A DNA stretch of 34,173 nucleotides from NCBI GenBank assembly GCA_964554555.1, contig CAZKPI010000001.1:4178-38350 (forward strand), read 5' to 3'. Within the stretch, counting starts at the first letter, position 1. Every line of letters begins with the position of its first letter. The notes under the pieces were generated by a model that worked only from the letters and a program-made list of their open reading frames with translations, did no database searches and was not told the origin of the DNA. A program made the translations under genes and the position numbers. The DNA is from an uncultured bacterium (GTDB lineage Bacteria; Muiribacteriota; Ozemobacteria; Ozemobacterales; Ozemobacteraceae). Positions 1,675-22,729 of the stretch are shown here, one piece after another.

Positions 1675-1954
1675 GGGATCTCGGGGGATGGTTTAGGGAT
1701 GGCGGATCACTGGTCGAGAGCCCTCTCCAACTCATTTCCGGGATACGCGGGGATCTTCCGGGGAAGGGTGGAGGGGGCTCAAACCCTCAACCGGTCAACA
1801 TTTTATCTGAAATGAAAGAACTTTTCCATGGCGGGGTGCCCAGGGCAGGAAAAATCGGGCGATCCCCCCCTCCAAATGCCCTAAACCTTGGGCGGTCATT
1901 CCATGGTAAAACATGAGGAGAACCAGTTCACGGAGGGAAAGAGGAGAGAGCGCT
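1675..1954. promoter_or_regulatory. Divergent intergenic region, likely carrying promoters for the minus-strand pseudopilin genes and the plus-strand cassette 1
   Basis: This is a 280-nt non-coding gap between divergently oriented genes. It contains the most AT-rich stretch of the left end (caacattttatctgaaatgaaagaacttttcc, about 1797-1828). I could not identify a convincing -35/-10 pair. Confidence 0.3.
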
Positions 1955-6951: not shown

Positions 6952-7502
6952 CCCCTCGACGTCCCCCAAAACCGGGAGGCGTCTCGATGGTGGAGATCAT
7001 GGTCACCCTCACGGTCATCGGTTTGGCCATCGCCCCTTTGTTCGGCCTTCTCAACGTCTCCAGCCAGCAGACCCAGACCTCGATGTCTTTCTTCCTGGCG
7101 GCCCAATATGCCGACGAGATAGCCCAACAACTGTTCCAGCTCGGCCCGGTCATCCCCCAGATCGTGGCCGAGGCCGCCTCGGGCACCACTGGCCTGGCCC
7201 CCGGCTTCCTCGATCTCCTGTCCGACAAGGAGTTCCTCCAGGACTTCCAGCAGGCTGATCAGTTTTTTCGGCTGGTCCCCTTCCGCCACCAGGGCAAAAA
7301 GCTCCAGGCCTACCTGGTCCTCTCCCCCCTGGAAGGCCATTTCCTGGAAAGGTATCTGGTCATCTCCCGAATCGATGCCTCCAAAACCACCCACCTGGGA
7401 ACCGGCCAGCACATCAAAATCGACATCTGCCTTTCCTGGAGGGATGCCCCTTCCAGGCCGATCCAGAAGGCCGCCTTCCCGATCATCCTGAAATTGTCAT
7501 GA
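6921..7502 (+). CDS. Pseudopilin (prepilin-type signal), GspI-size class, cassette 1 (193 aa)
   Basis: KPGG|VSMVEIMVTLTVIGLAIAPLFGLL has E at +5. Paralogues are 13883-14467 and 32207-32734 (QTSMSFFLAAQYADEIAQQL vs ANVSMYYLLAMHYADEMAQQL). It overlaps the 821-aa gene by 31 nt. Confidence 0.8.
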   Translation: MDGNLLRRILTPRRPPKPGGVSMVEIMVTLTVIGLAIAPLFGLLNVSSQQTQTSMSFFLAAQYADEIAQQLFQLGPVIPQIVAEAASGTTGLAPGFLDLLSDKEFLQDFQQADQFFRLVPFRHQGKKLQAYLVLSPLEGHFLERYLVISRIDASKTTHLGTGQHIKIDICLSWRDAPSRPIQKAAFPIILKLS

Positions 7503-8152
7503 CCCGGTTCCAGACCGCCCGCCACGCCCCCCCCCGGGGCTTCACCCTTCCCGAGGTGGTCTTTGTTGTCCTGTTGGCCTCCCTCGTCGCCAGCATCATC
7601 TCCAATGTGTTCTTTCAGGGGTTCCGTCAGACCGCCAAGGGAACCGACCGCCTGGATTCCATCCGGGCCTTCTCCCTGCTGGCCGAGGCGATCCGGAAGG
7701 ATGTCGCCAACTCCCTCAAGATCACTCCCCCCCCCACCGAACTGTACCCCGAAGAATTGTTGATTCCGGGTGATGTCGAGATGGCTTCCTCCCTCGGTGT
7801 GGATCTGTCAGAGGGTGGAAAGGTGGAGTATTCCATGGTCCCGGGAACCGCTTCCAAAGCCTCGTCCATCCAACGGGTCCAAAGAAACCCTTTGGGCGAG
7901 ACCGTCTCGCAAAAGTTGTTTGCCGCCGGCCGCACCAGATCTTTCAAGGTCCTCCATCTCGTGAAAAGGGTCAACGTGGGGGGATTGGCGCAGGAGTTGG
8001 ACCACGTCCTGGTCCAGATCGACCTCGACTCCCAGGACCCACGGTTCCCCGCCAACACCCTGACCTTCTTCCATGTCTTCGTGAGCGACCGCCTGCCGGG
8101 GTCCTCCTGGAACGACCGCAGCCGGGTTCTCCCTCCCCTGTCCGAACCTTGA
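7499..8152 (+). CDS. Pseudopilin (prepilin-type signal), GspJ-size class, cassette 1 (217 aa)
   Basis: PPRG|FTLPEVVFVVLLASLVASII has E at +5. It has an ATGA overlap with the upstream gene at 7499-7502. Paralogues are 13221-13886 and 30137-30832 (AKGTDRLDSIRAFSLLAEAIRKDVANS vs VKGKDRLDSIRAVTILLARMKEDLANC; DSQDPRFPANTL vs DTNDPRFPGSRL). Confidence 0.85.
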   Translation: MTRFQTARHAPPRGFTLPEVVFVVLLASLVASIISNVFFQGFRQTAKGTDRLDSIRAFSLLAEAIRKDVANSLKITPPPTELYPEELLIPGDVEMASSLGVDLSEGGKVEYSMVPGTASKASSIQRVQRNPLGETVSQKLFAAGRTRSFKVLHLVKRVNVGGLAQELDHVLVQIDLDSQDPRFPANTLTFFHVFVSDRLPGSSWNDRSRVLPPLSEP

Positions 8153-8368: not shown

Positions 8369-8457
8369 CTTGAAAATACAGAATTCTTGAATTGGACTGA
8401 ACCTTGGAACCCGCCGCCGCAGTATTGGAATGCCAAACCCCAAATCTTGTTCCAAGG
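8369..8457 (+). promoter_or_regulatory. AT-richer segment with reiterated TTG(G)AA hexamers upstream of the C11 peptidase gene; candidate promoter or operator
   Basis: CTTGAA occurs at 8369 and 8386, CTTGGAA at 8403 and ATTGGAA at 8424, spaced about 17, 17 and 21 nt apart. The palindrome CTTGTTCCAAG lies at 8446-8456, and AAGGAG (SD) lies just before ATG 8466. The segment sits in a 313-nt non-coding gap. Confidence 0.3.
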
Positions 8458-8465
8458 AGCACACC

Positions 8466-9866
8466 ATGGCCTATCGAATGCGAATCTTTCTCGTTTCCTT
8501 ATTCCTCCTGCTCTCCATTCTGATCCTGGACTCTCCTGCCCGCGGTCGGGAAACTCAAGAAAAAGACTGGACCCTGGCGGTCTTTCTGAATGCCGACAAC
8601 GATCTGGCCCCCTTCGGGGAGGCGGACCTGCGGGAAATGGCCCAGATCGGTTCTTCCGACTGGCTGGACATCGTGGTGCTCCACGACCGGCCGGCCACCC
8701 CGACCGACCAGGGCACCACCCTCCTCAAACACGTGGAAAAGAACCACGTCAAAGTCATCGAAGACCTTGGGGAACGCGACATGGGTGACCCGCAAGAGCT
8801 GACGCGCTTCATGGAACGGGTGGTTCGGGAGTTTCCGGCCCGCCGGTATGCCCTGGTGGTATGGAATCACGGAGCAGGCTGGCGAAGGCAGGGCCCAGCC
8901 CGGCCGATGCGGGGAATTTCCTATGACGAGACGAATGGCACCCACATCACCACCGAGGGAATGGGTCAGGCCGTTCGTCACATCGCCAATCTTCTGCAAC
9001 GCCCCCTTGACGTGCTAATCTTCGACGCCTGCCTGATGCAGATGGCGGAGGTGGTCCATCCCTGCGCGGCCTCGCTCCGCTTCCTCGTTGCATCTGAGGA
9101 AACCGAACCAGGCAGCGGTGCTCCCTACAACGAGATCCTCCTCCGCTGGCGGCCTGACACCTCTCCTGAGGATCTGGCGCGCCTCTGGGTGAAAACCTTC
9201 GCCGATTCCTACTCGCAAGGCAGTCAGGGCAGTGCTTACACGACCCAATCGGCGCTCGATGCCTCCCGGTATCCCGCCTTCTTGCAAGCCCTGGATGCTT
9301 TCGCCGAGACGATCATTCAACAAAAGGCTTTCTCCGAGGTACTGCTGGCCCGACGGCGATGCCTCGCCTTCGCCGACCGGCAGAGTATCGACCTGCTCGA
9401 CTTCGTCGACAAGGTCCTCTCGGTATCCACCAGGCCCGAGGTGATCGCGGCGGGAGAACGACTCCGCGCGGCCGGCCGTGACCTGATCACTGCCAACGCC
9501 ACCACCGGATGGGCCTACCAGGAGGCGAAGGGGTTGGCCATCTACCTCCCGATGACCTTCCTGCCCGAACCCGCCTACCGGGCCTTGTCCTTCGCCAAAT
9601 CCAGCCGATGGACCGCCATGATGTCAGCCATCTTCGCGGGACGCCACCTCGAAACCCTCCTCGACGATCTCCGGGCCGGCCGGGAAACGATCGACACGTT
9701 CCTGGCCGAGGCCGCCAACCAGTCCCCCGCCGTCGAGTCCCTGATGCTCGATCAGGTTTCCCATGCGGTCCTGACCGATGACCGCCTCCCGCCCGCCCTG
9801 CGCAACGAGATCGGGGAAAGGCTCGCCCAGGTCCGGTTCCTGCGGGCCGCCAGCCCACCCCGCTGA
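8466..9866 (+). CDS. Secreted clostripain-family (MEROPS C11) cysteine peptidase, 466 aa
   Basis: AAGGAG lies 6 nt upstream of ATG 8466. The signal peptide is MAYRMRIFLVSLFLLLSILILDSPA. C11 hallmarks are present: WTLAVFLNADNDL, the catalytic-His motif LVVWNHGAGW and the catalytic-Cys motif VLIFDACLMQMAEV, followed by LVASEETEPG. Confidence 0.85.
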   Translation: MAYRMRIFLVSLFLLLSILILDSPARGRETQEKDWTLAVFLNADNDLAPFGEADLREMAQIGSSDWLDIVVLHDRPATPTDQGTTLLKHVEKNHVKVIEDLGERDMGDPQELTRFMERVVREFPARRYALVVWNHGAGWRRQGPARPMRGISYDETNGTHITTEGMGQAVRHIANLLQRPLDVLIFDACLMQMAEVVHPCAASLRFLVASEETEPGSGAPYNEILLRWRPDTSPEDLARLWVKTFADSYSQGSQGSAYTTQSALDASRYPAFLQALDAFAETIIQQKAFSEVLLARRRCLAFADRQSIDLLDFVDKVLSVSTRPEVIAAGERLRAAGRDLITANATTGWAYQEAKGLAIYLPMTFLPEPAYRALSFAKSSRWTAMMSAIFAGRHLETLLDDLRAGRETIDTFLAEAANQSPAVESLMLDQVSHAVLTDDRLPPALRNEIGERLAQVRFLRAASPPR

Positions 9867-9999: not shown

Positions 10000-11412
10000 T
10001 CACGGGGTGGCGGCTCCACCCCTTCCCCACCGGGATTTGATGAACAGTTCGATCTTGGCCATGTCTTCATCAAGAACCCGGCAAATCAGTTCCAGGGTGG
10101 GATACCTCTGAATGAGATCCCGGACCTTTCCCAGGGTGTCCCGCTCATGGGAAAGAAACCGATGCAGTGCGGGATCACGACCAACCGAACGGGCCCGGAG
10201 ACCATCGAGGAACTCCTCGTACTCAGCGATCCCCTTTGGATGGGTCTGCATGACCGCCAACACCCGGAACAGGTCCAGGAGACGGAACAGGTCTTCGTAA
10301 TTCCGCTTCAACCCGACCTCGGCAATAATCTCCGGATCGAGGAGGCGCAGTCCAGTGGCCCTTCCGTAGATGAGGCCAGACACAAAGTTCTCCCGGGCCG
10401 TTCGCAGTTGCCGGATGCCCCGGCCGACAAGAGAGCTTCGGGGCCAGAGGACGGGCCCCAGATGATCCTGGTCAAATTTCCCAATGGCCTCGATCGCCAG
10501 CGGCTCGAGATTGAACAACACGAAGAAGGAATACCGGGAGACCTCCAGGTATTTCTCCATCAGTTCCTCATAGTAGGCGTGTCGAACGGAGGGCGGTTCC
10601 TTGCCCATGGCCGTCCGTTTGGCCTCCAAGGCCTGGATCTCCTTCAGAAGGGCTCCGATGCCGGTCGTGCCGAGAAAGATCCGCATGACATAGTTCACTT
10701 TGCCGAGGGCCGCCAACAATTGGGGATCAGCCCCATGGGCGGCGGCGAGGTCGGCCAGAGAGCGGGTGTCATCCTCGAAGAAATCCCGGCACGTCTCCTT
10801 CTCGACGATCCCCTCATCGAGCTTCATGGCCAGATCGACCTGCTTGGGGCCGACCGGAGAGGCGAACAGGCACGGCAGGCGATAGTATCCCGCCCCCGTC
10901 CTCGCCGGCCAGGACCACTCGACCCCAGCCAGCCACAGATGGCGGTTTTCCCCCGGGTCGGCCGGCGGGGCTTCCCTGGTGGCCACGACCTTTACCTGAA
11001 AGGATGCCACCTGCAAAAACAACGGCATCATCCCGCGATCGATTCCCCCATCAATTCTGGGATCGATCTGCCGCCAGGGTTCCCGCCGGTCCTCGAGGGA
11101 AGAGAAAAAGACCGAGGCCCCTTCGGTGATCCGGCTGGAGGTGGACCCCGCCTGGTCGATCCCGAGGATGGGAAATCCTGCCACGGGATCGATCAGGTTC
11201 TCCTGGGTGAGGTCCTGCATCACCTTCTGGGACAGGACGATGGCGGTGAAGTGTTCGGCGCTGAAGGCCAGCTCACGGCGGGTCGATTGCATCAGCCGGG
11301 AAAAGATGGTCCCCACCATGGCCACGACAAACAATCCGATCAGGATCTCGAGCAGGGACAGACCCTGGCTCCAATCCCGGCGGGCATGGCCGCGCTCCCT
11401 TCGTCGGGTCAT
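10000..11412 (-). CDS. Oversized pseudopilin-like protein with a prepilin-type signal peptide, 470 aa (last gene of the minus-strand array)
   Basis: ATG 11412 forms an ATGA overlap with the stop of the 405-aa gene. MTRRRERGHARRDWSQG|LSLLEILIGLFVVAMVGTIFSRLM has E at +5. It is a paralogue of 226-1674. The track ORF extension to 11598 would overlap the upstream gene by 190 nt, so I rejected it. Confidence 0.8.
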   Translation of the reverse strand: MTRRRERGHARRDWSQGLSLLEILIGLFVVAMVGTIFSRLMQSTRRELAFSAEHFTAIVLSQKVMQDLTQENLIDPVAGFPILGIDQAGSTSSRITEGASVFFSSLEDRREPWRQIDPRIDGGIDRGMMPLFLQVASFQVKVVATREAPPADPGENRHLWLAGVEWSWPARTGAGYYRLPCLFASPVGPKQVDLAMKLDEGIVEKETCRDFFEDDTRSLADLAAAHGADPQLLAALGKVNYVMRIFLGTTGIGALLKEIQALEAKRTAMGKEPPSVRHAYYEELMEKYLEVSRYSFFVLFNLEPLAIEAIGKFDQDHLGPVLWPRSSLVGRGIRQLRTARENFVSGLIYGRATGLRLLDPEIIAEVGLKRNYEDLFRLLDLFRVLAVMQTHPKGIAEYEEFLDGLRARSVGRDPALHRFLSHERDTLGKVRDLIQRYPTLELICRVLDEDMAKIELFIKSRWGRGGAATP

Positions 11413-12626
11413 TCCATCTCCACTCGCTTGACCTTCAGCTCGGTAAACTGGCTTCCCGCAAAGGTGATCCGGATCTCGTTCTTCTGGCCATCCTCGAAGG
11501 CATCCGCCGGAAGGACGAAATCCTGGAAGGCGGAAGTATTGGCGATCAGCTTGTCTGTCCAGTAGGGGGTGCCATTGATCGACAGGTTGATCCGGCATTG
11601 GGATTCCCCACTGCCATCCGGGGCGGCAGCCATCGTCAGCTTCACGTCATGTTTGTTGGGAACGCGAAAGACCCCAAACGAGTCCGACTCGGACATCCGG
11701 AAATATGGGCCAAGCGCGGGATCGCCCGAATACAGGGCGAAATTCTTGCCATCGGCGCCCATCCCTCCTCCGGCCGTGGGCGGGAAGGTGGTCAAATCGA
11801 CAAACCCCGCGGGAGGCGGAACCGCCGGCGGGGGGGTGGGCGGACTTGCCACCGCGGGCGGAGCGGAGGGTGGATCCGGCGGGTCAGGGACGGCGGGGGG
11901 CGGAGGGGCAGGAGGGTCGGGCAGGGACGGGGCCCCGGGAGTCCGGGCCCCGACCAGATCGATGATGTCCTGGACCTTGGCGGCGGCAGCAATCCTCTTC
12001 CGCTTGTCCGCCGCTTTTGGGCGATTGGCGGCCCGGGTGGCCAGCACCTGGTTCACCCGGGTGCGCATGCTCCCGGACGATCCGACCGGCATGTGGTACG
12101 GTTCGAAGGAACCAAAAAAGAGGGTCCGGATCCGGTTTCCGATATCAAGAATGTCATCGCGAACAGCCACCCGCCACAAGTAGAGTCGGGAAAATCCCAG
12201 GAAACTGGACCGGATGTAGATGTCCGCCTGCCGGGCCTTGCCGGAGTCCTCCACGAAACTATCATACTCCCCGCCGAACAGGGGCACCCCGTTCTCCTGG
12301 ACGGGCCCGTCCTTGAAATACCGGTCGGCCCAGGGCCGGAGGTAGATCCGGGCCAGGATCCGCGAATAGGCCGAATAGGCGATGGTGAAGGTCATTTCCC
12401 GTTTGTTGACCAGCTCGACCTGTCCACGATAACTCCGATTCAGGCCCGTGAAGGTGACCACCATGAACCCCACCACCACCGCCGCCAGGATGGCCAGGGG
12501 AAGGACCAGACCCCGACGCGGCAGGACCCGGCACAGGCCGCTGGGATACCCGGGCCGGCGCTTCCGGCGACACGCGTTGGCGGGCTCCCTCGGAGCCATC
12601 GCAGGCATTCGTCCGTTACTCCACAT
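11409..12626 (-). CDS. Membrane-anchored protein with a proline-rich linker and a C-terminal beta-rich domain (405 aa), GspK/PilX-like N-terminus
   Basis: Basic leader plus RRGLVLPLAILAAVVVGFMVVTF, with no Glu+5. The linker is PGAPSLPDPPAPPPPAVPDPPDPPSAPPAVASPPTPPPAVPPPAG. The C-terminal domain of about 130 aa ends NEIRITFAGSQFTELKVKRVEME. ATG confirmed at 12626; alternative ATGs at 12608 and 12599. Confidence 0.7.
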   Translation of the reverse strand: MWSNGRMPAMAPREPANACRRKRRPGYPSGLCRVLPRRGLVLPLAILAAVVVGFMVVTFTGLNRSYRGQVELVNKREMTFTIAYSAYSRILARIYLRPWADRYFKDGPVQENGVPLFGGEYDSFVEDSGKARQADIYIRSSFLGFSRLYLWRVAVRDDILDIGNRIRTLFFGSFEPYHMPVGSSGSMRTRVNQVLATRAANRPKAADKRKRIAAAAKVQDIIDLVGARTPGAPSLPDPPAPPPPAVPDPPDPPSAPPAVASPPTPPPAVPPPAGFVDLTTFPPTAGGGMGADGKNFALYSGDPALGPYFRMSESDSFGVFRVPNKHDVKLTMAAAPDGSGESQCRINLSINGTPYWTDKLIANTSAFQDFVLPADAFEDGQKNEIRITFAGSQFTELKVKRVEME

Positions 12627-13197
12627 CGGTCAGGTTCATCAGGCCCACATGGGTCAGAAACTGGTAACTGCTGTGCGCGTTGGCCACGGTTGCATTGACC
12701 AGCACCCCGAAGGGACTGACGCAGGTGAACGTCAGGCGCTCGAGCGAATCAGCCAGCACCTTCTCGGCGGTTGGGTCATGTCGGCCGAGATGGCGGTCGG
12801 TGTAGAAAACCAGCCGGTACAGCTTCTTCTTCGTCGACTTGGAGTGGGCCACGTCGTCTTCGAGATACAGCAGGCAGATGTTGTTCTCCGCATCGGTGCA
12901 GGCCAGGAAGTTGGTGGTCTCCCCCGGGGTCGGCCGAAGCACTTCGCTCCCTTCACGAAGATGCTCAACGATCTGGTCGGCCGCTTTCCGGGATTCCATC
13001 TGCAAGACCAGCCGGTTGGTCAATTGCCGCTCGGTGGAATGGAACAGGGTGGTGGAAAACCGCACGGCCAGGGCAAGCACGAAGGACAGGATGGCGGCAC
13101 CGACCATCATTTCGACCAGGGTGAACGCCCGGGAATGGTGAGGTGTCATATCTCTCTCTACTGTCCAACGGTCGAAAGGGTTTACCCTTCTCGACAT
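12616..13197 (-). CDS. Pseudopilin (prepilin-type signal, Ala at -1), 193 aa; candidate major subunit of cassette 2
   Basis: HHSRA|FTLVEMMVGAAILSFVLALAVRF has E at +5. The start is ATG 13197 (24-aa leader, consistent with the long leaders of the other pseudopilins here) or ATG 13149 (8-aa leader). It has no counterpart in cassettes 1 or 3. Confidence 0.8.
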   Translation of the reverse strand: MSRRVNPFDRWTVERDMTPHHSRAFTLVEMMVGAAILSFVLALAVRFSTTLFHSTERQLTNRLVLQMESRKAADQIVEHLREGSEVLRPTPGETTNFLACTDAENNICLLYLEDDVAHSKSTKKKLYRLVFYTDRHLGRHDPTAEKVLADSLERLTFTCVSPFGVLVNATVANAHSSYQFLTHVGLMNLTDVE

Positions 13198-13220: not shown

Positions 13221-13886
13221 TCACGGAGGAGGCGAGGTCAGGACGGGCCAGTCGGTCCCGGGCAGGCGGTTGGGCACCAGAACATGCCGGAAATTCAGTC
13301 GACTGCCGGGGAACCGCGGATCATTGGTATCGAGAACCAGATTCAGAAAAACCAGGTCGGCCGCCAGGGGGACCGTCCCGGCACGGAAGGCCCGGACGGC
13401 ATGGCAGAGTTCGAACGTCCGAATCCGGGGAATGCCAAACCGTTCCGACTGCCGCCCGCTTTCGGGCGATTCCACGATTCGCTCAACCCAGGAGCTTCCA
13501 CCCCCGGGTGCCTGTTCCTGGCGATAGGTGACCCGCCGCTTCCCCGTCTGAAAGGTCAATTGGGGGGAAAACACCGCCTCGTCGGGAAGCTGGTCTTCTT
13601 CCTCATACAGAATCAGCGGCGGACCTGTTCCCTGGATGGCGGTGCAATTGGCCAGGTCCTCCTTCATCCGGGCCAACAGAATGGTCACGGCCCGGATCGA
13701 GTCAAGCCGATCCTTCCCTTTTACCGTGGTACGGACCCCGTGCGAGAAGAAGGCAAAGAGGGTCAACAGAACCATCGACACCAGGCAGACGACGATGACG
13801 ATCTCCGGGAAGGTGAACCCGGCCGGCGGGGGTCTTCTTCCCGGGAATCTCTGAGCCTGACCTGACCCGGTGACTCCTGCGGTCAT
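13221..13886 (-). CDS. Pseudopilin (prepilin-type signal), GspJ-size class, cassette 2 (221 aa)
   Basis: PPPAG|FTFPEIVIVVCLVSMVLLTLFAFF has E at +5. It has an ATGA overlap at 13883-13886. It is a paralogue of 7499-8152 and 30137-30832. Confidence 0.85.
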   Translation of the reverse strand: MTAGVTGSGQAQRFPGRRPPPAGFTFPEIVIVVCLVSMVLLTLFAFFSHGVRTTVKGKDRLDSIRAVTILLARMKEDLANCTAIQGTGPPLILYEEEDQLPDEAVFSPQLTFQTGKRRVTYRQEQAPGGGSSWVERIVESPESGRQSERFGIPRIRTFELCHAVRAFRAGTVPLAADLVFLNLVLDTNDPRFPGSRLNFRHVLVPNRLPGTDWPVLTSPPP

Positions 13887-14467
13887 GGGGCGCCCATGAG
13901 GATCGGGAAAACGGCCGTCTTTGCCCCGCCATCAGGTGTTTCCTTCCAGGACAGGACGAGATTGATCTTCAGGGCAGGGGGAACGGCCAGCAGTTCGACC
14001 TGATCGGAGGCCAGCGCCTCAACCTTGATGGTGCGGCCAATGAAATGCTCGTCCAGGGGTGAAACCGCCAGGAATCCTTCCAGGGGCTTTCCGGCATACC
14101 GGAACCGGATCACCCGGAAAGTGGAGGCGGGAGCCTGCAGTTCCGCCAGGAAGGTTGGGTCGGTCAACACTTCGGCCAGGGTCGGAATGCGGCCGGTGTT
14201 GGAATCCCGGGCCGCCGCCAGGAGTTGATCGAGATGGGGAGCAAGCCGCTGAAGCTGTTGGGCCATCTCGTCGGCATAGTGCATGGCCAGCAGGTAGTAC
14301 ATCGAGACATTGGCTTTCTGGTTCGACGAACTCAGCATCCCCACGAGGGGCCCAAGAACAAGCCCCAGCAGGAAAAGGGCAACCATCACCTCGACCACGG
14401 TCACCGCCCGATAGGCTCGCCGCCTGAGGATCCCAACGCCGCCACGGCATTTCTCGGGCGGGGTCAT
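13883..14467 (-). CDS. Pseudopilin (prepilin-type signal, Ala at -1), GspI-size class, cassette 2 (194 aa)
   Basis: RRRAYRA|VTVVEVMVALFLLGLVLGPLVGML has E at +5. It has an ATGA overlap at 14464-14467 with the 846-aa gene. It is a paralogue of 6921-7502 and 32207-32734. Confidence 0.8.
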   Translation of the reverse strand: MTPPEKCRGGVGILRRRAYRAVTVVEVMVALFLLGLVLGPLVGMLSSSNQKANVSMYYLLAMHYADEMAQQLQRLAPHLDQLLAAARDSNTGRIPTLAEVLTDPTFLAELQAPASTFRVIRFRYAGKPLEGFLAVSPLDEHFIGRTIKVEALASDQVELLAVPPALKINLVLSWKETPDGGAKTAVFPILMGAP

Positions 14468-17004
14468 CCCCCTCCCCCGCGAAAGGTGATGGAGATGGGC
14501 TTGTCCGCCAGCACAACCCGTCGGGACTCGACATAGGAAGGTTCGCTGGGGTTGAAGCGGGGGTTGTAGGTGATGATGCCGCCGTTGGGGAAGTGTTCCA
14601 TCGTTGTCCCGCAGGAGCGCGGATCCTCGTCCTGGTTAGGATACAAACCCATCTCCCAAACCGCCAGTCCTCCGGTGATCGACAAGGGGGCGGCATGAGG
14701 ACGGGACAGGGCCAGCAACCGCCCCCCCCCCGGGCCAAACCCGCCGCCTTCCACACCAATCCCGGGCTTGAGAGCGACCAGGTAGGCCTGAACATCGGCG
14801 GCGGCCGGCCCCAGGTAGAGATCTCCGTCAAGGACCAGAAGCGAACACAGATGAGGTGAGACCGGGGCCCCGCCCGCCCCGATACTGGCCGGAACTACCA
14901 GATCGCCGTGGTCCACCACGATGATCAGGGAACGGTCGAGATGAAGGCGCCCCGGGAGAGACAACCGCACCCCCCGCGCTACCGCCTGCTTCGAACGCTG
15001 AACCAGGAAAATCCCCGTGCGGCGTGGAATCCACCACCCTACCCCGCACGGATCCGCCGCGGTGGATGGCCGGAACAGGCGGTCCCGAAGCCGATCGCTT
15101 TCCCCGGTTTCCAGATCCGCCGCCGGCAGGCCGGTCAGATCGAGGATATGGGTGATCCGCCGAAGGATTCCGTCCCGCGTCACCTGGTAATCCTTCAAAT
15201 TTCCCCGGAAATAGCGGGCCTCCGGGGTGTCATCCCCCACCCCGGGCGTGGGCGGCAACAGGATCCGCACATCCTCGGAAGGATGCAGGCCGGGGATGCC
15301 CCCGCCGGCCCCCCCCAACCGCATGGAAGCCGCGAAGGGAACACAACGGGGATCCTGATCATACCGCGCCTCGCTGACCGAGGGTGCTCCCTCCAGGGTC
15401 GGGAACGGCTTCTTGGGATCCCGGCCCGTGGTGTAGTTCATGAAATCGAACAGGCGGTTGAAGGCCATTCCCGGGAACACCCGGACCGCCCCCGACACAG
15501 GCAAGGTGCTGAAGGGGGCCACCAGCTTGAGGCTTTCATACCCCGCCAGCGGATCAGGCATGGGAGGCTGGAGAAACAGTGCCTGATTGATGAACTCTTC
15601 GGGAAACCGCCCCCCCGGCGCCACGCTCACATCCGCACGGGGATCGTAGAATTCCTGGGCCTGCGGACCGCGGAAGAACCCCCCCCAACGGGCGCCATCC
15701 CGCCCCGCGCCGCGGGCGAAAAAGGCTTTCAGCAGTCCCCCCAAAACCGGGCCGATGATCAGCGTCCGAGAGGGGTGGGCCTGGTGACCGTAGGGGAACA
15801 ACCAGGTCGAGGCACACAGGAAACGCCACCGCGAGGACCAGCGGACACCCTCCGGCCAGAGTTCGGGCCACATTTCGAAGGCCGCCGCTCCCATGTGGCT
15901 CAGACTGCCGAACTGGGAATGGGTGAAGTAGCCGAACAGCTTGGCGCCAAGCGTGTATGGCTCCCAGCCTTCCGTCCGGAACTCTTTCGGGTCCTCGATG
16001 ATTTCGGGAGGACTGTCATTCATGCCTGCAGAGGTCCGGATGGGGGGGAGATGGAAATGGAACTGGCCCCCGGTCTGGGGGTCGTACCCGTTCGGGATCT
16101 TCAGGATGACCGGCCCCGATCGCGGCCGGCCGGCGATGGGAGCAGGTCCCAGAAAAACCCAGCCGCGGGTGCGAAGGTCGGCGGCATCGTCGGGGCTTTG
16201 GCTGGGCAGGCCGGGAGTGGGCGAGTTCCGCAAGACCAGCGGCCCGCCGAAGGTCTGACGCCGGGGAATCGGATGCTGATAGGTGGTATCGACCACCCCG
16301 TTGAACCTCACCCCCACCGCGTTGTAGGCGTGATCCCAAGGGGTGAAGGGGACAAACAGAGTGAATCGGCAGTAGGGGCCGGGAACCATGCTCACCAGCT
16401 TGAAGGGAAATGTTCCCTCCGCCCGGCGGACGACCCCGTGGTACTCAACCAGGCAGACAATGTCCACTTCCCCTTCCTTCTCCACCGGATCGCGGGCCAC
16501 CTGGATTTCCGGCACAGGGGTCAATGGGGCGATCGTCCGAAAACGGATCTCCACCCCTGTGCATTCGGGGGTTCGGGGGGTCAAACCGTCCAGGTAATGC
16601 AATTCGCCGAGCTGGGCGAAATACCGGTTCAGATCCTCCTGGAATTGCCCGGCAAGAGCAGGGCCCACGACAACCGTGGCCGGCGCGTTGGCCTGGAAGA
16701 GGCCGGCCACTTCTGCCCGGAGGCGGGGCTCGAGATCGCTTCCCACCCGACGGGCAATCAGAGCGATACCTGACTGGCCCAAATGATCGGCCGTCCGCAC
16801 CAGCAGTTCGTGGTAGGCACGAAGGTTCTGGCTCCGGACCATGGCATGGAAGGAGGTGATGAACACCCCCAACAGCAGGAACACCAATCCCGCGACCCAC
16901 AGGATGAATCCCAGCCTCGACTTGGAGCGATCGACGACCAGCAGGAACAGCGAGAGTCCCAAACGGGTCCTGCTTCCCCGATCAGAGGATGGGTGAAGGG
17001 GCAT
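14464..17004 (-). CDS. Large N-terminally anchored protein, cassette 2 (846 aa); same unrecognised family as 4486-6951
   Basis: N-terminal anchor LGFILWVAGLVFLLLGVFITSF. Shared blocks are ARDPVEKEGE, LVSMVPGPYCRFTLFVPFTPW, GWVFLGPAP, TGGQFHFHLPP, CASTWLFPYGHQAHPSRTLIIGPVLGGLLK, AFNRLFDFMNY, DPRCVP, GLHPSEDVRI and GTTMEHFPNGGIITYNPRFNPSEPSY. Confidence 0.85.
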   Translation of the reverse strand: MPLHPSSDRGSRTRLGLSLFLLVVDRSKSRLGFILWVAGLVFLLLGVFITSFHAMVRSQNLRAYHELLVRTADHLGQSGIALIARRVGSDLEPRLRAEVAGLFQANAPATVVVGPALAGQFQEDLNRYFAQLGELHYLDGLTPRTPECTGVEIRFRTIAPLTPVPEIQVARDPVEKEGEVDIVCLVEYHGVVRRAEGTFPFKLVSMVPGPYCRFTLFVPFTPWDHAYNAVGVRFNGVVDTTYQHPIPRRQTFGGPLVLRNSPTPGLPSQSPDDAADLRTRGWVFLGPAPIAGRPRSGPVILKIPNGYDPQTGGQFHFHLPPIRTSAGMNDSPPEIIEDPKEFRTEGWEPYTLGAKLFGYFTHSQFGSLSHMGAAAFEMWPELWPEGVRWSSRWRFLCASTWLFPYGHQAHPSRTLIIGPVLGGLLKAFFARGAGRDGARWGGFFRGPQAQEFYDPRADVSVAPGGRFPEEFINQALFLQPPMPDPLAGYESLKLVAPFSTLPVSGAVRVFPGMAFNRLFDFMNYTTGRDPKKPFPTLEGAPSVSEARYDQDPRCVPFAASMRLGGAGGGIPGLHPSEDVRILLPPTPGVGDDTPEARYFRGNLKDYQVTRDGILRRITHILDLTGLPAADLETGESDRLRDRLFRPSTAADPCGVGWWIPRRTGIFLVQRSKQAVARGVRLSLPGRLHLDRSLIIVVDHGDLVVPASIGAGGAPVSPHLCSLLVLDGDLYLGPAAADVQAYLVALKPGIGVEGGGFGPGGGRLLALSRPHAAPLSITGGLAVWEMGLYPNQDEDPRSCGTTMEHFPNGGIITYNPRFNPSEPSYVESRRVVLADKPISITFRGGGG

Positions 17005-17007: not shown

Positions 17008-18033
17008 TCAGGGGTTGGTCGTAACCGACTGGGAGTTCTCGATGACCTGGCCGTTTTGGATGATCACTTTGGAGTTGATGGAAACGCCCCCCCCGGCGGA
17101 AAGTCCACCGGTGGTGACCGGCTTCCCATTCACCGTAACGGTGACTCCGGCGCCAGTCGAAGACACCGTCACCCGCGAAGCCGCTCCGGCAGACTGCCGG
17201 GCCCGCTCGGCATCCTCCAGGTCCTGGGAGGTGGTGGAATCGATCACCACGGGACCCTGTGACACCTCGGCGGGATCTCCAGCAGGGGTATCCGTTTCCG
17301 ACGAGCGATCGGCACCCACCTCCAAAGGGGTGCCCGCAGAAAGATCGGCCAAATCGCCCCCCCGATCCACCAGGATGCTTCCTGGATCAGCCGCGGGGAG
17401 AGTCAGGTTGGCAGGGGGATTCCCGGTGCCGGAGGGGGGAGGGGAATCAACGGTCTGGACTTCAGGGGCATAGTATTCAAAACTTTCCACCGCCCCTTCC
17501 GCCGTTCGGAACCGGACTCTTTTCTTCTGGATGCGGACCCGGCGGGGAGTTTTGGGAGCCGCCCCCGCGTGCGGCAAGGGTCCATCGCAGAAGGTCTTCA
17601 TCCCATCCAGAACGTCCTTCAGGACCGAGGCCTGGTCTGAATTCAGGCCCGGTCGGCCGGCCATGGGATCCGCCGCAGAAAGACCACTGGAAGTTTCGGG
17701 GTCCCTGGCGGCGGAGGGGCGATCGAAGGAAATCCGGGCCGCCAGGAGATCCTCGATCCGGCCCTCCTCGAGCAACCCGGCATCGGCCAGGCGCTGGAGT
17801 CCCTGCCGGGTAGCCTCCCCGCGCAGGGGAATCCCCGGAGGACAATGAGCCTGGTTATACCGGTCGACCAAGGCCGCGAAGGATTCCATCTCGGCTGGTG
17901 AGAGGGCCCAGACCCCCGGCCTGGCCATGAACACCAAAACGAGGATAAGCACCCAGGAGACGGCCTTCGTTACCCCGAACCAGGCGTCGGGGTCGAGGGA
18001 GGAAAAGGGTTTGGCCGTGGTCATTCGTGGCAT
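17008..18033 (-). CDS. Secreted or anchored hypothetical protein (341 aa from ATG 18033)
   Basis: AAGGAG lies 7 nt upstream of ATG 18033; the track ORF start at 18114 is a GTG. The hydrophobic segment VSWVLILVLVFMARPGVWA|LSP resembles a signal peptide. The central region is acidic and P/S/T-rich. The C-terminus is beta-like and G/T/V-rich (RVTVSSTGAGVTVTVNGKPVTTGGLSAGGGVSINSKVIIQNGQVIEN). The stop is 3 nt before the 846-aa start. Confidence 0.65.
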   Translation of the reverse strand: MPRMTTAKPFSSLDPDAWFGVTKAVSWVLILVLVFMARPGVWALSPAEMESFAALVDRYNQAHCPPGIPLRGEATRQGLQRLADAGLLEEGRIEDLLAARISFDRPSAARDPETSSGLSAADPMAGRPGLNSDQASVLKDVLDGMKTFCDGPLPHAGAAPKTPRRVRIQKKRVRFRTAEGAVESFEYYAPEVQTVDSPPPSGTGNPPANLTLPAADPGSILVDRGGDLADLSAGTPLEVGADRSSETDTPAGDPAEVSQGPVVIDSTTSQDLEDAERARQSAGAASRVTVSSTGAGVTVTVNGKPVTTGGLSAGGGVSINSKVIIQNGQVIENSQSVTTNP

Positions 18034-18121
18034 GGCTTCGCTCCTTGGACCGTGCATCGGCCGCGGAACCCGACGCCCCCCCTGGGCGGGAGGGCGGCAG
18101 GCTCCCGCATTCACCCTCAGA

Positions 18122-19924
18122 TCATTCCGGGGAAATGGTGGCCTCTTTGTTGTCGGAACCCGTTTCCTGGGATGGCGACTCGTCCTTTTCGTCCTCCGGT
18201 TCGGAAGAATCCCCTTCCGAGGGAAGGCCCTTTTTGTACAGTTTATCCCAGATGTTGATCAAGGTGGCCCGGGTGGGCTTGTCCTCGGTGATATCAGGCA
18301 CGGTGTAGTCGGTTCCGCCTGTTTCCTTCATCAACTCGCGGGCGATCGCCAGCCAATCGGGCCCGTATTCGGCGGGAAGGTCGAACCCTGTGAACGCGGA
18401 GTTCTTCTTCAGAAGCTGGAAGGCATAGGCTTTCCGGTAGTCGCCCTTCGACTTCCCCCCGGCTGGGGAATCCAGCATGCCCTTCGGGAAGTAGACATAC
18501 CATCGCTTGATCACGGTCTCCCGGGAGGGCTTGTCCGCCGAGAAGGGTTGGTCGAATTCCTTCAGGGCCTCCCCCAGGGCCTTCCAGGCATCGACATCGG
18601 TGTCAGCCTTGGGCAGGGCGAACCCCAGTTCCTTCCAAACTCCGTTCTTCTCCTTGAATTCCTTCCAAACCTCCCCGAGGGTTCCCGAGGTCTTCGAGGC
18701 CGCCTCATCACCCTCATCTTCCTCGTCATCGTTCTCATCGGCGTCGTCCTCATCCGGCGACGACGCACCCGACCCGCATACGGCACAGGTGGAGCCCGCT
18801 TCACACCCCCACGGCTGGCGCTCCTTCAGCAGGTCCCGGAGATTTTCGGCCAACTTTTCGGCCAGAGGCAACAGATTGCCAAGATCGTCCTTCACCCCTT
18901 TCCTGGCAGACTCGGGTGCCTTTTCCAGGGCCTTCTGGAAATCCTTGTAGAGCTGGTCGATCTCCTGGAACTTCCCGGTCAGTCCTCCTGACTCCTCATC
19001 TCCGGATTTCCCGTCCTTTTTCCCTTTGTCATCCTTCCCCTTTTTCTCCTCTCCCTCTTTGTCCTTCTTCTTGTCTTTCTCGTCATCATCATCGGCTTTC
19101 CCGGAGAGGAAGTCCTTCAGCTCGTCGTTCTCGAACTTGTAGTCCTGGGTCCAATCCGATCCGGCTTTGGTTTTCTGGTCCTTGATCGCCTTTTCGAAGG
19201 TTTTGACGGCCTTTTCCAGGCCATTGGCGATTTCTTCCAGCCCGTCATGCGCCTTCTTCAGGTTCTCGGTCACCGCCTTGGTGGCCTCTCCGGGCTCCGG
19301 GTCCCCCTCTTTCTTTTCCTTCTCGGCCTTCTCGGCCTTCTCGATTTCCTCCTCGGCGGCATCCATCTTCTCGTCAGCTTTGTCCAGGGCTTCGCGAACA
19401 TCGTCGGCCCGGTCGATCTGCTTTTCCACCGCTTCTTTGAAGGCCGCAAACGGCCCGGAGCCCTTCTTGTAGAATTCCTCCTGGACTTTGGCAAGGTCCT
19501 CGAGAGTCTTCACCTTGCCTTGCGTGGAAGTCCCCCATTTGTCATACCAGCTCTCGCCCGCGTATCCCTTCAGGGTCGCTAAAGCCTTGTCGAACCGGCC
19601 GCAGAACTCATGGGCATGGATCAGGGCGTCCACGATCTCGCTCTTGTCGGGAAGCCCCTGGCTTCCCCAGACCAGACCATAGCTTTCGAGACGGCCGCTA
19701 TCAATCTTTCCCAGCATCGATTCGGCCATCTTGATGACGCACTCGTGATGTCTTTTTTCCCGGGCATCCTCGAGTTTGGCATACTCGTCGATCAACTCCT
19801 GCTTCTTGGCCTCCCGGTCCGAGTCGGAAACGGCGGCCTTCTCCCCGGTCGATGCTGTGGGCAGAAGCCAGCCAACCATCAAAACCGCCAGTACCACCAC
19901 CCACCGAATCCTGCTTCGTGCCAT
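18122..19924 (-). CDS. Secreted K/E/D-rich coiled-coil protein (600 aa from ATG 19924)
   Basis: AGGAGG lies 10 nt upstream of ATG 19924. The signal-like N-terminus is MARSRIRWVVVLAVLMVGWLLPTAST. A charged coiled-coil follows (EKQIDRADDVREALDKADEKMDAAEEEIEKAEKAEKEKKEG). There are highly charged tracts KADDDDEKDKKKDKEGEEKKGKDDKGKKDGK and SSPDEDDADENDDEEDEGDE. Architecture and position match 1955-3709. Confidence 0.8.
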   Translation of the reverse strand: MARSRIRWVVVLAVLMVGWLLPTASTGEKAAVSDSDREAKKQELIDEYAKLEDAREKRHHECVIKMAESMLGKIDSGRLESYGLVWGSQGLPDKSEIVDALIHAHEFCGRFDKALATLKGYAGESWYDKWGTSTQGKVKTLEDLAKVQEEFYKKGSGPFAAFKEAVEKQIDRADDVREALDKADEKMDAAEEEIEKAEKAEKEKKEGDPEPGEATKAVTENLKKAHDGLEEIANGLEKAVKTFEKAIKDQKTKAGSDWTQDYKFENDELKDFLSGKADDDDEKDKKKDKEGEEKKGKDDKGKKDGKSGDEESGGLTGKFQEIDQLYKDFQKALEKAPESARKGVKDDLGNLLPLAEKLAENLRDLLKERQPWGCEAGSTCAVCGSGASSPDEDDADENDDEEDEGDEAASKTSGTLGEVWKEFKEKNGVWKELGFALPKADTDVDAWKALGEALKEFDQPFSADKPSRETVIKRWYVYFPKGMLDSPAGGKSKGDYRKAYAFQLLKKNSAFTGFDLPAEYGPDWLAIARELMKETGGTDYTVPDITEDKPTRATLINIWDKLYKKGLPSEGDSSEPEDEKDESPSQETGSDNKEATISPE

Positions 19925-20016
19925 GTCCTTCTTTCCTCCTGTTTGGCCGGGTTTTTGTCTCCACAGTGGATTACCGGAAGCACCACCCATGAGGTTCAGC
20001 CGAATATTCCCCCGAC

Positions 20017-20757
20017 TCATTGACGGTTCAATTTCAGGCTCTCGAACGGCACATCCTTGAACAGGGATTCCCGCTCGAAGGGATCCACCGCCGCCGGAGG
20101 CGTCACAGGGGACCCGCGGCGGGCGATCACCCGCTGTCCTGCCCCCACCTCGACCGTCGTTCCCATCAGGTCAGTGAAGGATACTCTGCCCTCCTCCACG
20201 ACCAGGGTGGTGGAATCGGCATCGACCTCCAGCAGGAACATGGTGCCCAAAACCGCCGTCAACCCATGCGGAGTCTTGATCCTGGTTTCCTGCTGTTGTT
20301 TGTTGAACCGGTAGATCACCAGACCCTTTTCCTGGAGGGCGCGCGGAACTTTGGCATGCACCTCGAAATAGGCTTCTGCCTTCACCACCGCCTCGCTCCC
20401 GTCGGCAAACGCGATCCGGGCCCCACTGGCCCGGCCAGTCCGGACCCCGCCGCCCTCCTTCAAGGGTTGCTCCCCTTGCACCGAGGCGAACCCCTCCCCG
20501 GCCTTGAGACGGGCTTCGACTTCTCCCACCGGTTCCCGAACCTTGGCCAGGGGGGGGTCGTCGGCCCCGCCGCACCCCACCAGGGAGGCGAAGGTGACCA
20601 GAACGGCCAAGCCGACCAGGACTGCCCTCTTTTTCCACGGGGCTTCTTCATGAGCGGTCGCCTGCCACGGGGAGCCGGAGCCCTCCCGGAAAACGGGTCG
20701 ATCCTGCCGCCGCATGCCCCTGGTCCCAACGCATTTCAGGCCCTCCAAGTCCTGCAT
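20017..20757 (-). CDS. FecR-domain lipoprotein (246 aa)
   Basis: AGGAGG lies 8 nt upstream of ATG 20757. The lipobox is AVLVTFASLVG|CGG. FecR-type blocks are RIAFADGSEAVVKAEAYFEV and IKTPHGLTAVLGTMFLLEVDADSTTLVVEEGRVSF. Confidence 0.8.
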   Translation of the reverse strand: MQDLEGLKCVGTRGMRRQDRPVFREGSGSPWQATAHEEAPWKKRAVLVGLAVLVTFASLVGCGGADDPPLAKVREPVGEVEARLKAGEGFASVQGEQPLKEGGGVRTGRASGARIAFADGSEAVVKAEAYFEVHAKVPRALQEKGLVIYRFNKQQQETRIKTPHGLTAVLGTMFLLEVDADSTTLVVEEGRVSFTDLMGTTVEVGAGQRVIARRGSPVTPPAAVDPFERESLFKDVPFESLKLNRQ

Positions 20758-20760
20758 GCT

Positions 20761-22701: not shown

Positions 22702-22729
22702 CCCAATCCCCTGTCACCCCTCCAGACCG

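What the first reader, a model, noticed from the sequence alone, without database searches (positions are those of the whole stretch)
14464..17004. Family of about 830-aa proteins that I cannot place in any characterised family
The three copies are 821 aa, 846 aa and a partial copy. They share many invariant blocks: ARDPVEK.GE, LVSMVPGPYCRFTLF[AV]PFTPW, GWVFLGPAP, TGG[NQ]FH[FY].LPP, CAS[ST]WL[MF]PYG....PSRT[LV][IV].GPVL[AG]G[YL]LK, AFN..F[DE]FM.Y, and GTTMEHFP.GG.ITYN...NP..P.Y at the extreme C-terminus. The N-terminus is a pilin-like hydrophobic helix after a basic leader, but it lacks the Gly-1/Glu+5 signature. That is the pattern of GspK-type cap pseudopilins. However, these proteins are two to three times the size of GspK. 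I see no catalytic motif, no repeat and no known adhesin domain. The degree of conservation between copies implies a structured, selected fold.
Basis: partly seen in the sequence, partly recalled or inferred. Interest (0 to 1): 0.8.

Follow-up and report, generated by a model that had tools for sequence, protein, structure and literature searches.

The report
Giant cap pilin family in Riflebacteria
These ~830-residue proteins are an unannotated family, found only in the candidate phylum Riflebacteria, that most likely forms the oversized tip subunit of a type IV pilus-like filament together with the two small pilin genes that always follow it.

Summary
Three paralogues (846 aa, 821 aa, and one cut by the contig end) share 37-45% identity and the listed motifs. 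One detail is wrong: Gly-1 is present and invariant (42/42 homologues). Only Glu+5 is missing, which is the GspK/PilX-type cap signature.

The family has no Pfam, NCBIfam or PDB sequence match. A word-indexed search of 5.8 billion proteins gave 17 hits and a profile search of 1.8 billion gave 367. All 44 loci in GTDB representative genomes are Riflebacteria/Ozemobacteraceae MAGs, or unnamed or probably mislabelled ones, with up to 7 copies per genome.

In 33 of 34 loci with enough flank, a prepilin gene starts within a few bases of the stop codon. A second follows in 30 of 34. These resemble GspI (hhalign 71%) and GspJ (89.5%).

An AlphaFold model (pTM 0.79) shows a 60-residue N-terminal helix, then three long strands and a large beta-rich remainder. 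Its only notable PDB match is ComZ, the Thermus tip pilin with an inserted beta-solenoid (E 7e-3, borderline).

Best reading: a giant cap minor pilin that primes a filament with I-like and J-like partners and displays a ~600-residue head of unknown function. This is a new variant of a known kind (ComZ, cyanobacterial PilX/HpsA, CofB).

The parts
14464..17004 (-). The finding itself: cap-type giant minor pilin, copy 2, 846 aa. Predicted prepilin cleavage is after Gly32 (SRLG|FILWV), with no Glu+5.
4486..6951 (+). Copy 1, 821 aa (SRKG|FVLGI), 45% identical to copy 2.
32731..34143 (-). Copy 3, the C-terminal ~470 aa only, cut by the contig end. An adapter remnant occupies 34144-34173.
13883..14467 (-). 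Pilin A of cassette 2, 194 aa, a GspI/PilV-like prepilin (RA|VTVVE). Its ATG overlaps the stop codon of the big gene (ATGA).
13221..13886 (-). Pilin B of cassette 2, 221 aa, a GspJ/PilW-like prepilin (AG|FTFPE). It overlaps pilin A by 4 nt.
6921..7502 (+). Pilin A of cassette 1, a 193-aa ORF (GG|VSMVE).
7499..8152 (+). Pilin B of cassette 1, 217 aa (RG|FTLPE).
32207..32734 (-). Pilin A of cassette 3, 175 aa (IG|LSLIE). It overlaps the stop of copy 3 by 4 nt.
30137..30832 (-). Pilin B of cassette 3, 231 aa (RG|FTLVE). It gives weak NCBIfam hits to GspJ. A FecR-domain gene separates it from pilin A.
12616..13197 (-). A third prepilin in cassette 2, 193 aa (RA|FTLVE), passing the N_methyl gathering score.
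11409..12626 (-). 405-aa protein with a second Glu5-less pilin-like N-terminus (RRG|LVLPL), a Pro-rich linker and a C-terminal beta domain. Its role is unknown.
10000..11598 (-). Large prepilin-like protein (QG|LSLLE), a 532-aa ORF and paralogue of 226..1674.
226..1674 (-). Large prepilin-like protein, 482 aa (GG|FSLVE, N_methyl hit), paralogue of 10000..11598.
17008..18114 (-). 368-aa protein with an N-terminal hydrophobic segment, directly upstream of copy 2. It is weakly related to the small secreted proteins that follow pilin B in 13 other loci.
18122..20020 (-). 632-aa Lys/Glu-rich protein with a signal peptide, the first gene of cassette 2. It is a paralogue of 1913..3709.
1913..3709 (+). 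598-aa Lys/Glu-rich protein with a signal peptide, the first gene of cassette 1.

Best explanation
The protein is the cap (tip-most) minor pilin of a type IV filament, meaning either a type IV pilus or a type II-secretion-like pseudopilus.

Proposed mechanism, step by step:
1. It is made with a class III signal peptide and inserted in the inner membrane by its ~20-residue hydrophobic helix.
2. A prepilin peptidase cuts it after the invariant Gly.
3. It lacks Glu+5, the residue an incoming subunit uses to dock onto the subunit above it. It can therefore only occupy the top position.
4. It nucleates a 1:1:1 priming complex with the two translationally coupled prepilins that follow it. Pilin A is GspI/PilV-like and pilin B is GspJ/PilW-like.
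5. Major pilin then polymerises beneath this complex.
6. The ~600 residues beyond the pilin-like module form a bulky, beta-rich head carried at the filament tip. It would act as a plug plus an adhesin or receptor, as proposed for ComZ, cyanobacterial PilX/HpsA and PilY1.
7. Several cassettes per genome would give alternative tips.

Shown here: the signal-peptide signature, the family's restriction to one phylum, the operon structure, and the I-like and J-like character of the partners (moderate support).

Inferred: cleavage, tip position, complex formation and the role of the head.
For: N-terminus. [KR][KR]G|[FMIV]xLG[VI] followed by a hydrophobic helix is found in 42 of 43 homologues. Gly-1 is 42/42 and +5 is never Glu. 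This holds down to 25% identity. E. coli GspK (RG|VALLIV) aligns in register.

Synteny. A canonical prepilin gene with Glu5 starts at -66 to +18 nt from the end of the big-gene match (+3 or +6 in most loci) in 33 of 34 loci. A second follows at about +540 nt in 30 of 34. By tblastn, pilin A is found in 32-37 loci and pilin B in 27-38 of 50 loci. No other neighbouring gene is conserved as widely. In the window the stop and start codons overlap by 4 nt.

Partners. Pilin A against GspI gives hhalign 70.7% over 100 columns. Pilin B gives 89.5% over 82 columns against GspJ and 15% against GspI. NCBIfam gives weak XpsI/PilV hits for pilin A and weak GspJ hits for a pilin B copy.

Structure. The AF2 model has pTM 0.79 and mean pLDDT 75.9. 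It shows helix 29-88, short helices, and three long antiparallel strands (147-160, 176-188, 191-205). A beta-rich C-terminal third follows with pLDDT ~90. The three top Foldseek PDB hits are all chains of ComZ (6qvi), with E 7e-3 to 3e-2 and probability 0.33-0.75.

Precedent. ComZ is a GspK-like pilin domain with an inserted beta-solenoid, is argued to be a tip pilin, and binds the adjacent pilin PilA2 (PMC6561018). Cyanobacterial PilX and HpsA have the same architecture and are proposed to act as a tip plug.
Against: No sequence model of GspK, PilX, ComZ-like or any pilin family matches the big protein. hhalign against E. coli GspK gives only 11% probability.

The ComZ fold match is borderline, with TM 0.12-0.26 and no hit at E<=1e-3. 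The N-terminal module modelled alone gave no pilin hit at all.

I could not inspect coordinates, so the 'pilin fold with inserted domain' topology is unverified.

No assembly ATPase, platform protein, secretin or prepilin peptidase was found in 688 kb of window plus related loci. Whether these genomes have a filament machine was not tested.

Cassette 2 holds a second Glu5-less pilin-like protein (11409..12626), so which one caps is ambiguous.

A mature ~90-kDa tip subunit must still pass an outer-membrane channel.
Confidence: 0.65

Rival explanations
1. It caps a type II-secretion-like pseudopilus rather than a surface pilus. Each cassette would build a periplasmic piston tip whose head recognises a dedicated Sec-exported cargo encoded in the same cassette. 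This is the same molecular logic as the best explanation, with a different output (secretion rather than adhesion).
For: The partner pilins resemble GspI and GspJ. In 23 of 25 related loci where an ORF followed pilin B, that ORF encodes a protein with a Sec-type signal peptide. These fall into two recurrent families of ~160-290 aa and ~540-563 aa. In the window, a signal-peptide clostripain-family protease (8430..9866, Pfam 1.4e-45) follows cassette 1. A 529-aa signal-peptide protein follows cassette 3.
Against: No GspC/D/E/F/L/M homologues lie near any cassette. Five to seven cassettes per genome is unlike known T2SS. GspK-type caps in T2SS are ~330 aa, and a 600-residue head inside a periplasmic pseudopilus has no precedent.
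Confidence: 0.2
2. It is a bitopic inner-membrane protein with a signal anchor and a large periplasmic domain, for example an assembly or regulatory accessory. It would never be cleaved or incorporated into a filament.
For: A short basic N-terminus followed by one hydrophobic helix is also the topology of uncleaved anchors. No pilin HMM matches. The fold evidence for a pilin domain is weak.
Against: An invariant Gly placed exactly before the helix and after [KR][KR] in 42/42 sequences, down to 25% identity, is not expected of a plain anchor. The tight and nearly universal coupling to two true prepilins and the ComZ top hit also argue against it.
Confidence: 0.1
3. It is a PilY1/PilC-type non-pilin tip adhesin.
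For: Its size (~800-900 aa) and its position in a minor-pilin operon resemble PilY1.
Against: PilY1 has a Sec signal peptide and a C-terminal beta-propeller (Pfam Neisseria_PilC). This protein instead has a pilin-type N-terminus and matches no such domain. No propeller hit appears in Foldseek.
Confidence: 0.03

Closest known systems
ComZ of Thermus thermophilus (PDB 6qvi)
   Same: Both have a pilin-like N-terminal helix that pilin predictors miss. Both have a GspK-like logic, a very large beta-rich extra domain, and a gene adjacent to a partner minor pilin. ComZ is argued to sit only at the tip (PMC6561018). It accounts for the three top Foldseek hits of the full model.
   Different: There is no detectable sequence similarity. 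The fold match is borderline (E 7e-3, TM <=0.26). The Riflebacteria protein is ~300 residues longer. Whether its extra part is a solenoid inserted before the last strand was not verified. DNA binding is unknown.
Cyanobacterial PilX subfamilies and HpsA (hormogonium polysaccharide secretion locus)
   Same: These are Glu5-less cap pilins carrying a bulky apical domain, proposed to replace PilY1 as a tip plug. Several distinct minor-pilin sets per genome prime different filaments (bioRxiv 10.64898/2026.02.12.705559). Gene order is also shared, but this rests on my own knowledge and was not checked here: in the hps locus the large gene precedes the small pseudopilin genes.
   Different: NCBIfam holds Hps pseudopilin models. 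The small pilins hit HpsB and HpsC only weakly, and the big protein hit no Hps model. The phylum is different. The number of cassettes is higher (up to 7 per genome).
GspK (T2SS cap pseudopilin; GspI-GspJ-GspK tip complex, PDB 3CI0)
   Same: Both have Gly-1, no Glu+5 and an N-terminal helix alignable in register. Both are co-encoded with I-like and J-like partners.
   Different: The Riflebacteria protein is 2.5 times larger. It gives no Pfam T2SSK hit and no Foldseek hit to GspK. It is not in a gsp operon. The gene order is K-I-J instead of I-J-K.
CofB/TcpB (type IVb initiator minor pilins) and modular pilins PilB/PilC of Streptococcus sanguinis
   Same: In both, a pilin module is fused to large extra domains displayed on or at the tip of the filament. 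CofB is structurally related to GspK and is needed to initiate assembly (PMC6561018). That CofB binds a secreted partner, CofJ, is my own knowledge.
   Different: The added domains are different (lectin-like or vWA) and show no similarity here. Those proteins retain or lack Glu5 in their own ways. Trimeric tip architecture was not assessed.
Verru_Chthon cassette protein A (TIGR02600)
   Same: It is a large protein (~1300 aa) encoded with several prepilin-type proteins in a phylum-restricted cassette. It gave the only NCBIfam line for copy 1, covering the N-terminal helix region.
   Different: The match is not significant (E = 0.69, 7.7 bits against a cutoff of 332). The phyla are different.

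Membership tests
Type IV filament prepilins (class III signal peptide) | Short basic leader ending in Gly-1, followed by a ~20-residue hydrophobic helix | tested here: met
   [KR][KR]G|[FMIV] followed by a hydrophobic stretch in 42 of 43 homologues.
Type IV filament prepilins (class III signal peptide) | Glu at +5; match to Pfam N_methyl / TIGR02532 | tested here: not met
   Position +5 is V/I/L/M/A/T and never E. There is no N_methyl or TIGR02532 hit. This is expected for cap subunits only.
GspK / T2SSK cap pseudopilin | Gly-1 present and Glu+5 absent | tested here: met
   E. coli GspK reads RG|VALLIV.
GspK / T2SSK cap pseudopilin | Sequence match to T2SSK (Pfam) or to GspK | tested here: not met
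   No Pfam or NCBIfam hit at E<=1-5 in any of 17 members. hhalign against E. coli GspK gives 10.9% probability over the N-terminal 53 columns only.
GspK / T2SSK cap pseudopilin | Pilin fold with an alpha-helical domain inserted between strands 3 and 4 | tested here: inconclusive
   The model has the long helix plus three long strands. No Foldseek hit to GspK was found. The remainder is beta-rich rather than alpha-helical.
GspK / T2SSK cap pseudopilin | Co-encoded with GspI-like and GspJ-like partners | tested here: met
   33 of 34 and 30 of 34 loci. hhalign gives pilin A-GspI 70.7% and pilin B-GspJ 89.5%. Support for the I and J identities is moderate.
GspK / T2SSK cap pseudopilin | Located in a gsp operon with secretin, ATPase and platform genes | tested here: not met
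   tblastn of E. coli GspD/E/F/L/M/O found nothing in 688 kb of window plus 50 loci.
ComZ / solenoid-bearing PilX tip pilins | [quoted passage not shown] | tested here: inconclusive
   The top three Foldseek PDB hits are ComZ chains, with E 7e-3 to 3e-2, probability 0.33-0.75 and TM 0.12-0.26. DSSP shows many short strands in residues 579-843.
ComZ / solenoid-bearing PilX tip pilins | Adjacent partner minor pilin | tested here: met
ComZ / solenoid-bearing PilX tip pilins | DNA binding or tip localisation | not testable with these tools
   This needs experiment.
PilY1 / PilC tip adhesin | Sec signal peptide and a C-terminal beta-propeller (Pfam Neisseria_PilC) | tested here: not met
   The N-terminus is pilin-type. 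There is no Pfam hit and no propeller appears in Foldseek.
Verru_Chthon cassette protein A (TIGR02600) | Score above the curated cutoff of 332 bits | tested here: not met
   7.7 bits, E = 0.69, for copy 1 only.

The most novel reading that the evidence does not exclude
The ~600-residue head would be a new fold. Each of the 5-7 cassettes per genome would pair a distinct head with its own co-encoded Sec-exported partner protein, in the manner of CofB-CofJ. One filament machine in Riflebacteria could then be fitted with interchangeable tips, each presenting or exporting a different cargo. Cargoes might include a clostripain-type protease or Lys/Glu-rich proteins. Control could come from the neighbouring CHASE2-PP2C/STAS partner-switching module.
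Probability: 0.2. Interest if true: 0.65.

Novelty: new variant of a known kind. Interest (0 to 1): 0.45.

Why it matters
Minor-pilin tip complexes decide what a type IV filament does: adhesion, DNA uptake, secretion or surface sensing. They are poorly known outside a few model phyla.

This family extends the 'bulky cap pilin instead of PilY1' solution to an uncultured phylum. That solution has so far been described for Thermus and cyanobacteria. Here the head is larger and unrelated in sequence, and the cassettes are unusually numerous.

It offers a defined three-gene unit that could be used to annotate about 50 loci now labelled hypothetical. It also offers a set of natural head variants for asking how tip modules specify filament function. 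The family's conserved triad makes complex prediction and heterologous reconstitution directly testable.

Tried and rejected
Sequence searches that found nothing:
- Pfam and NCBIfam scans of all three copies, of 10 distant relatives and of all 17 aligned members.
- PDB sequence searches with the single protein and with profiles of the big protein, pilin A and pilin B. These found only N-terminal pilin-helix matches for the small pilins.

Fold searches that did not help:
- Foldseek of the N-terminal module modelled alone (residues 33-335) gave only noise, such as levivirus coats and thioesterases. Residues 207-335 lost confidence when isolated, so they belong structurally with the rest of the protein.
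- Foldseek against viral structures (BFVD) gave nothing.

Comparison with GspK:
- hhalign against a single E. coli GspK gave an in-register alignment that was not significant.

Context and literature searches:
- A search for filament machinery near the cassettes by tblastn found none.
- Three attempts to fetch the rest of the window's own contig failed because the proteins are not on record.
- The promoter and terminator scan of cassette 2 did not exceed the shuffled expectation.
- A literature search on Riflebacteria pili found nothing relevant.

Interpretations considered and rejected:
- PilY1-like adhesin, rejected because the N-terminus is pilin-type and there is no propeller.
- Verru_Chthon cassette protein A, rejected at E = 0.69.
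- Pseudogene status for copy 3, rejected because it is simply cut by the contig end.
Full report
**1. What is in the sequence**

The window has ~62% G+C. It holds three paralogous long ORFs:
- 14464..17004(-), 846 aa
- 4486..6951(+), 821 aa
- a third copy from 32731 to the window end on the - strand

MAFFT identity to the 846-aa copy is 45% and 37%. Local blastp gives E = 0 and E = 1e-47.

The C-terminal block is degenerate in the partial copy.

The partial copy is not decayed. The contig simply ends, and the final 30 bases of the window are an Illumina adapter remnant.

The start codon of the 846-aa ORF is uncertain. The public gene call is 832 aa. The ATG at 17004 lies 3 nt after the upstream stop.

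**2. The N-terminus**

Only half of that is right.

In the 17-member alignment and in 42 of 43 genomic homologues, the hydrophobic helix is preceded by [KR][KR]-Gly:
- Gly-1 is present in 42/42.
- Position +1 is F (24), M (10), I (4) or V (4).
- Position +5 is V/I/L/M/A/T and never Glu.

The remaining homologue (L038) has GSG|FVLPV without the basic pair.

The signature persists in relatives that are only 25-29% identical (L041-L049). It is the signature of GspK/PilX-type cap subunits. E. coli GspK reads RG|VALLIV and aligns in register with the family profile, although without statistical support (hhalign probability 10.9%).

The cyanobacterial preprint describes PilX, which lacks Glu5, as the terminal capping subunit. 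The docking salt bridge itself is my own knowledge: Glu5 bridges to the N-terminus of the subunit above. Only the top-most subunit can do without it.

**3. How rare the family is and where it lives**

Sequence-level searches:
- The big protein has no match in Pfam, NCBIfam or PDB sequences. The only line at E<=1 is a non-significant NCBIfam match at E 0.69.
- A scan of all 17 aligned members at E<=5 gave only scattered single-member noise.
- A word-indexed search of 5.8 billion proteins gave 17 hits, all unnamed or 'hypothetical'. The named ones come from Candidatus Riflebacteria.
- An exhaustive profile search of 1.84 billion cluster representatives gave 367 hits at E<=1e-3 and 42 at E<=1e-30. 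More distant ~650-900-aa proteins mostly match the N-terminal ~400 profile positions, and a few match a C-terminal piece.
- Ten of those distant proteins have no Pfam domain. Those with names are again Riflebacteria.

A scan of one genome per GTDB species found 44 loci. All that carry a phylum or family label are Riflebacteria/Rifleibacteriota or Ozemobacteraceae MAGs. The rest are 'uncultured bacterium', plus two labelled Anaerolinea and Methylomirabilis.

One MAG has 7 loci and another has 5. The phylum name is confirmed in the taxonomy.

**4. Neighbours**

In the window each copy is followed by two small genes with prepilin N-termini carrying Glu5:
- 13883..14467 and 13221..13886
- 6921..7502 and 7499..8152
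- 32207..32734, with 30137..30832 lying one gene further on

The junctions overlap by 4 nt (ATGA), which indicates translational coupling.

Across the related loci with enough downstream sequence:
- 33 of 34 have a prepilin gene starting at -66 to +18 nt from the end of the big-gene match, at +3 or +6 in most loci. This is pilin A, ~175-195 aa, [GA]-[LF]-S-[LM]-V-E.
- 30 of 34 have a second at about +540 nt. This is pilin B, ~200-235 aa, G-F-T-F-V-E.

By tblastn, pilin A is found in 32-37 loci and pilin B in 27-38 of 50 loci. No other neighbouring gene is conserved as widely. Gene tables from independent look-ups show the same triad. The one exception is P0017/L038.

That condition is not met.

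**5. What the small pilins are**

Profiles of pilin A (36 sequences) and pilin B (32 sequences) hit PDB only through the N-terminal helix.

hhalign against E. coli proteins is more discriminating:

| Query | Target | Probability | Columns |
|---|---|---|---|
| Pilin A | GspI | 70.7% | 100 |
| Pilin A | GspJ | 81.5% | 43, the helix only |
| Pilin B | GspJ | 89.5% | 82, reaching past the helix |
| Pilin B | GspI | 15% | 34 |

NCBIfam gives weak XpsI/PilV hits for pilin A, and weak GspJ hits for the third pilin B copy.

The conserved unit is therefore best read as a K-like/I-like/J-like triad, with moderate support for the I and J labels.

**6. Structure**

AlphaFold2 on the 17-sequence alignment gave mean pLDDT 75.9 and pTM 0.79. 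The model shows:
- a 60-residue N-terminal helix (29-88)
- short helices
- three long antiparallel strands (147-160, 176-188, 191-205)
- a less confident middle (about 310-530)
- a C-terminal third (about 580-846) of many short strands at pLDDT ~90

Foldseek against PDB found nothing at E<=1e-3. The three best hits are all chains of ComZ from Thermus thermophilus (6qvi), with E 7e-3 to 3e-2, probability 0.33-0.75 and TM 0.12-0.26. The next hit is at E 0.7.

ComZ is a GspK-like pilin domain with a ~380-residue beta-solenoid inserted before the last strand. It binds the adjacent pilin PilA2 and is argued to fit only at the tip (PMC6561018).

The match is coherent but borderline. When the N-terminal 33-335 was modelled alone, only 33-204 stayed confident, and Foldseek returned noise. 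BFVD gave nothing.

I could not access coordinates. Whether the extra mass is inserted into the pilin sheet, and whether it is a solenoid, remains untested.

**7. Mechanism proposed**

Shown here:
- the cap-type class III signal peptide
- coupling to two Glu5-bearing prepilins

Inferred:
- cleavage by a prepilin peptidase
- assembly of a 1:1:1 priming complex with the big protein on top
- polymerisation of major pilin beneath it
- display of the ~600-residue head at the filament tip as plug and adhesin or receptor

Confidence is about 0.65.

The main variant, at about 0.2, is that the filament is a secretion pseudopilus and the head handles cargo. The gene after pilin B encodes a Sec-signal protein in 23 of 25 loci where an ORF followed pilin B. 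These fall into two recurrent families. In the window, a signal-peptide clostripain-family protease and other signal-peptide proteins flank the cassettes.

Two further rivals are less likely. A plain uncleaved membrane anchor (about 0.1) is disfavoured by the invariant Gly. A PilY1-type adhesin (about 0.03) is disfavoured by the pilin N-terminus and the lack of a propeller.

**8. Weak points**

- No filament machinery genes were found in 688 kb around the cassettes, and the rest of these genomes could not be examined.
- Cassette 2 contains a second Glu5-less pilin-like protein (11409..12626, RRG|LVLPL) and six pilin-like N-termini in all. The exact subunit order is therefore open.
- The fold evidence rests on one borderline match.

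**9. Comparison with what is known, and novelty**

By function, the closest are:
- ComZ
- the cyanobacterial PilX/HpsA cap pilins, whose bulky solenoid is proposed to replace PilY1 as a tip plug, with several minor-pilin sets per genome priming different filaments
- GspK
- CofB

Membership in any of these families fails at the sequence level and is inconclusive at the fold level. I therefore file it as a new, phylum-restricted family that is a new variant of a known kind, the modular cap minor pilin.

It is not categorically new.

Interest is 0.45. It is a solid annotation gain, with an unusual number of cassettes and a large head of unknown fold and function. The organising principle is already described.

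Noticed in passing
window 34144-34173: The last 30 bases of the window read, on the - strand, as CTACACTCTTTCCCTACACGACGCTCTTCC. This is an Illumina TruSeq adapter remnant left at the contig end. It fuses in frame to the third copy of the big gene.
   Followed up: partly
window 8430-9866 (+); 28590-30179 (-); related loci L007-L048 about 0-400 nt after pilin B: The gene after the second pilin encodes a Sec-signal protein in 23 of 25 related loci where an ORF followed pilin B. Two recurrent families appear: ~160-290 aa in 13 loci and ~540-563 aa in 6 loci. In the window the equivalents are a clostripain-family peptidase C11 and a 529-aa protein. These could be cargo or tip partners.
   Followed up: partly
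window 11409-12626 (-): A 405-aa protein carries a second Glu5-less pilin-like N-terminus (RRG|LVLPLAIL). It has a long Pro-rich linker and a C-terminal beta-rich domain, and sits in the same operon as the 846-aa copy. It has no Pfam hit, and its relation to the cap role is unexplained.
   Followed up: no
window 226-1674 (-) and 10000-11598 (-): Two paralogous large prepilin-like proteins (482 and 532 aa, 25% identical, E 7e-28) have canonical G|[FL]S[LV][LV]E N-termini. They represent another unannotated modular pilin family beside the cassettes.
   Followed up: partly
window 20017-25744 (-) and 26234-28522 (-); L003/L004 1363-7121: A regulatory block precedes the cassette in the same order in the window and in L003/L004. 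It comprises a HEAT-repeat protein, a STAS anti-anti-sigma-like protein, a CHASE2-SpoIIE/PP2C phosphatase and a FecR-domain protein. This may be a partner-switching control of the cassette. The HEAT and FecR genes are each duplicated in the window.
   Followed up: partly
window 1913-3709 (+) and 18122-20020 (-): Two Lys/Glu/Asp-rich ~600-aa proteins with signal peptides open cassettes 1 and 2 (24% identical, E 1e-6). They give only coiled-coil-type low-complexity Pfam noise.
   Followed up: no
L010 (DYEI01000254.1) and L026 (DYKG01000044.1): Two contigs carrying family members are labelled Anaerolinea sp. and Candidatus Methylomirabilis sp. L010 has nearly the same length, match coordinates and identity as the Ozemobacter sibiricus contig L012. 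They are probably binning or labelling errors.
   Followed up: no
L024 3386-4681: A 431-aa signal-peptide protein lies upstream of a family member. Its C-terminal ~100 residues resemble GspG (tblastn 4e-4) but it lacks a prepilin N-terminus.
   Followed up: no
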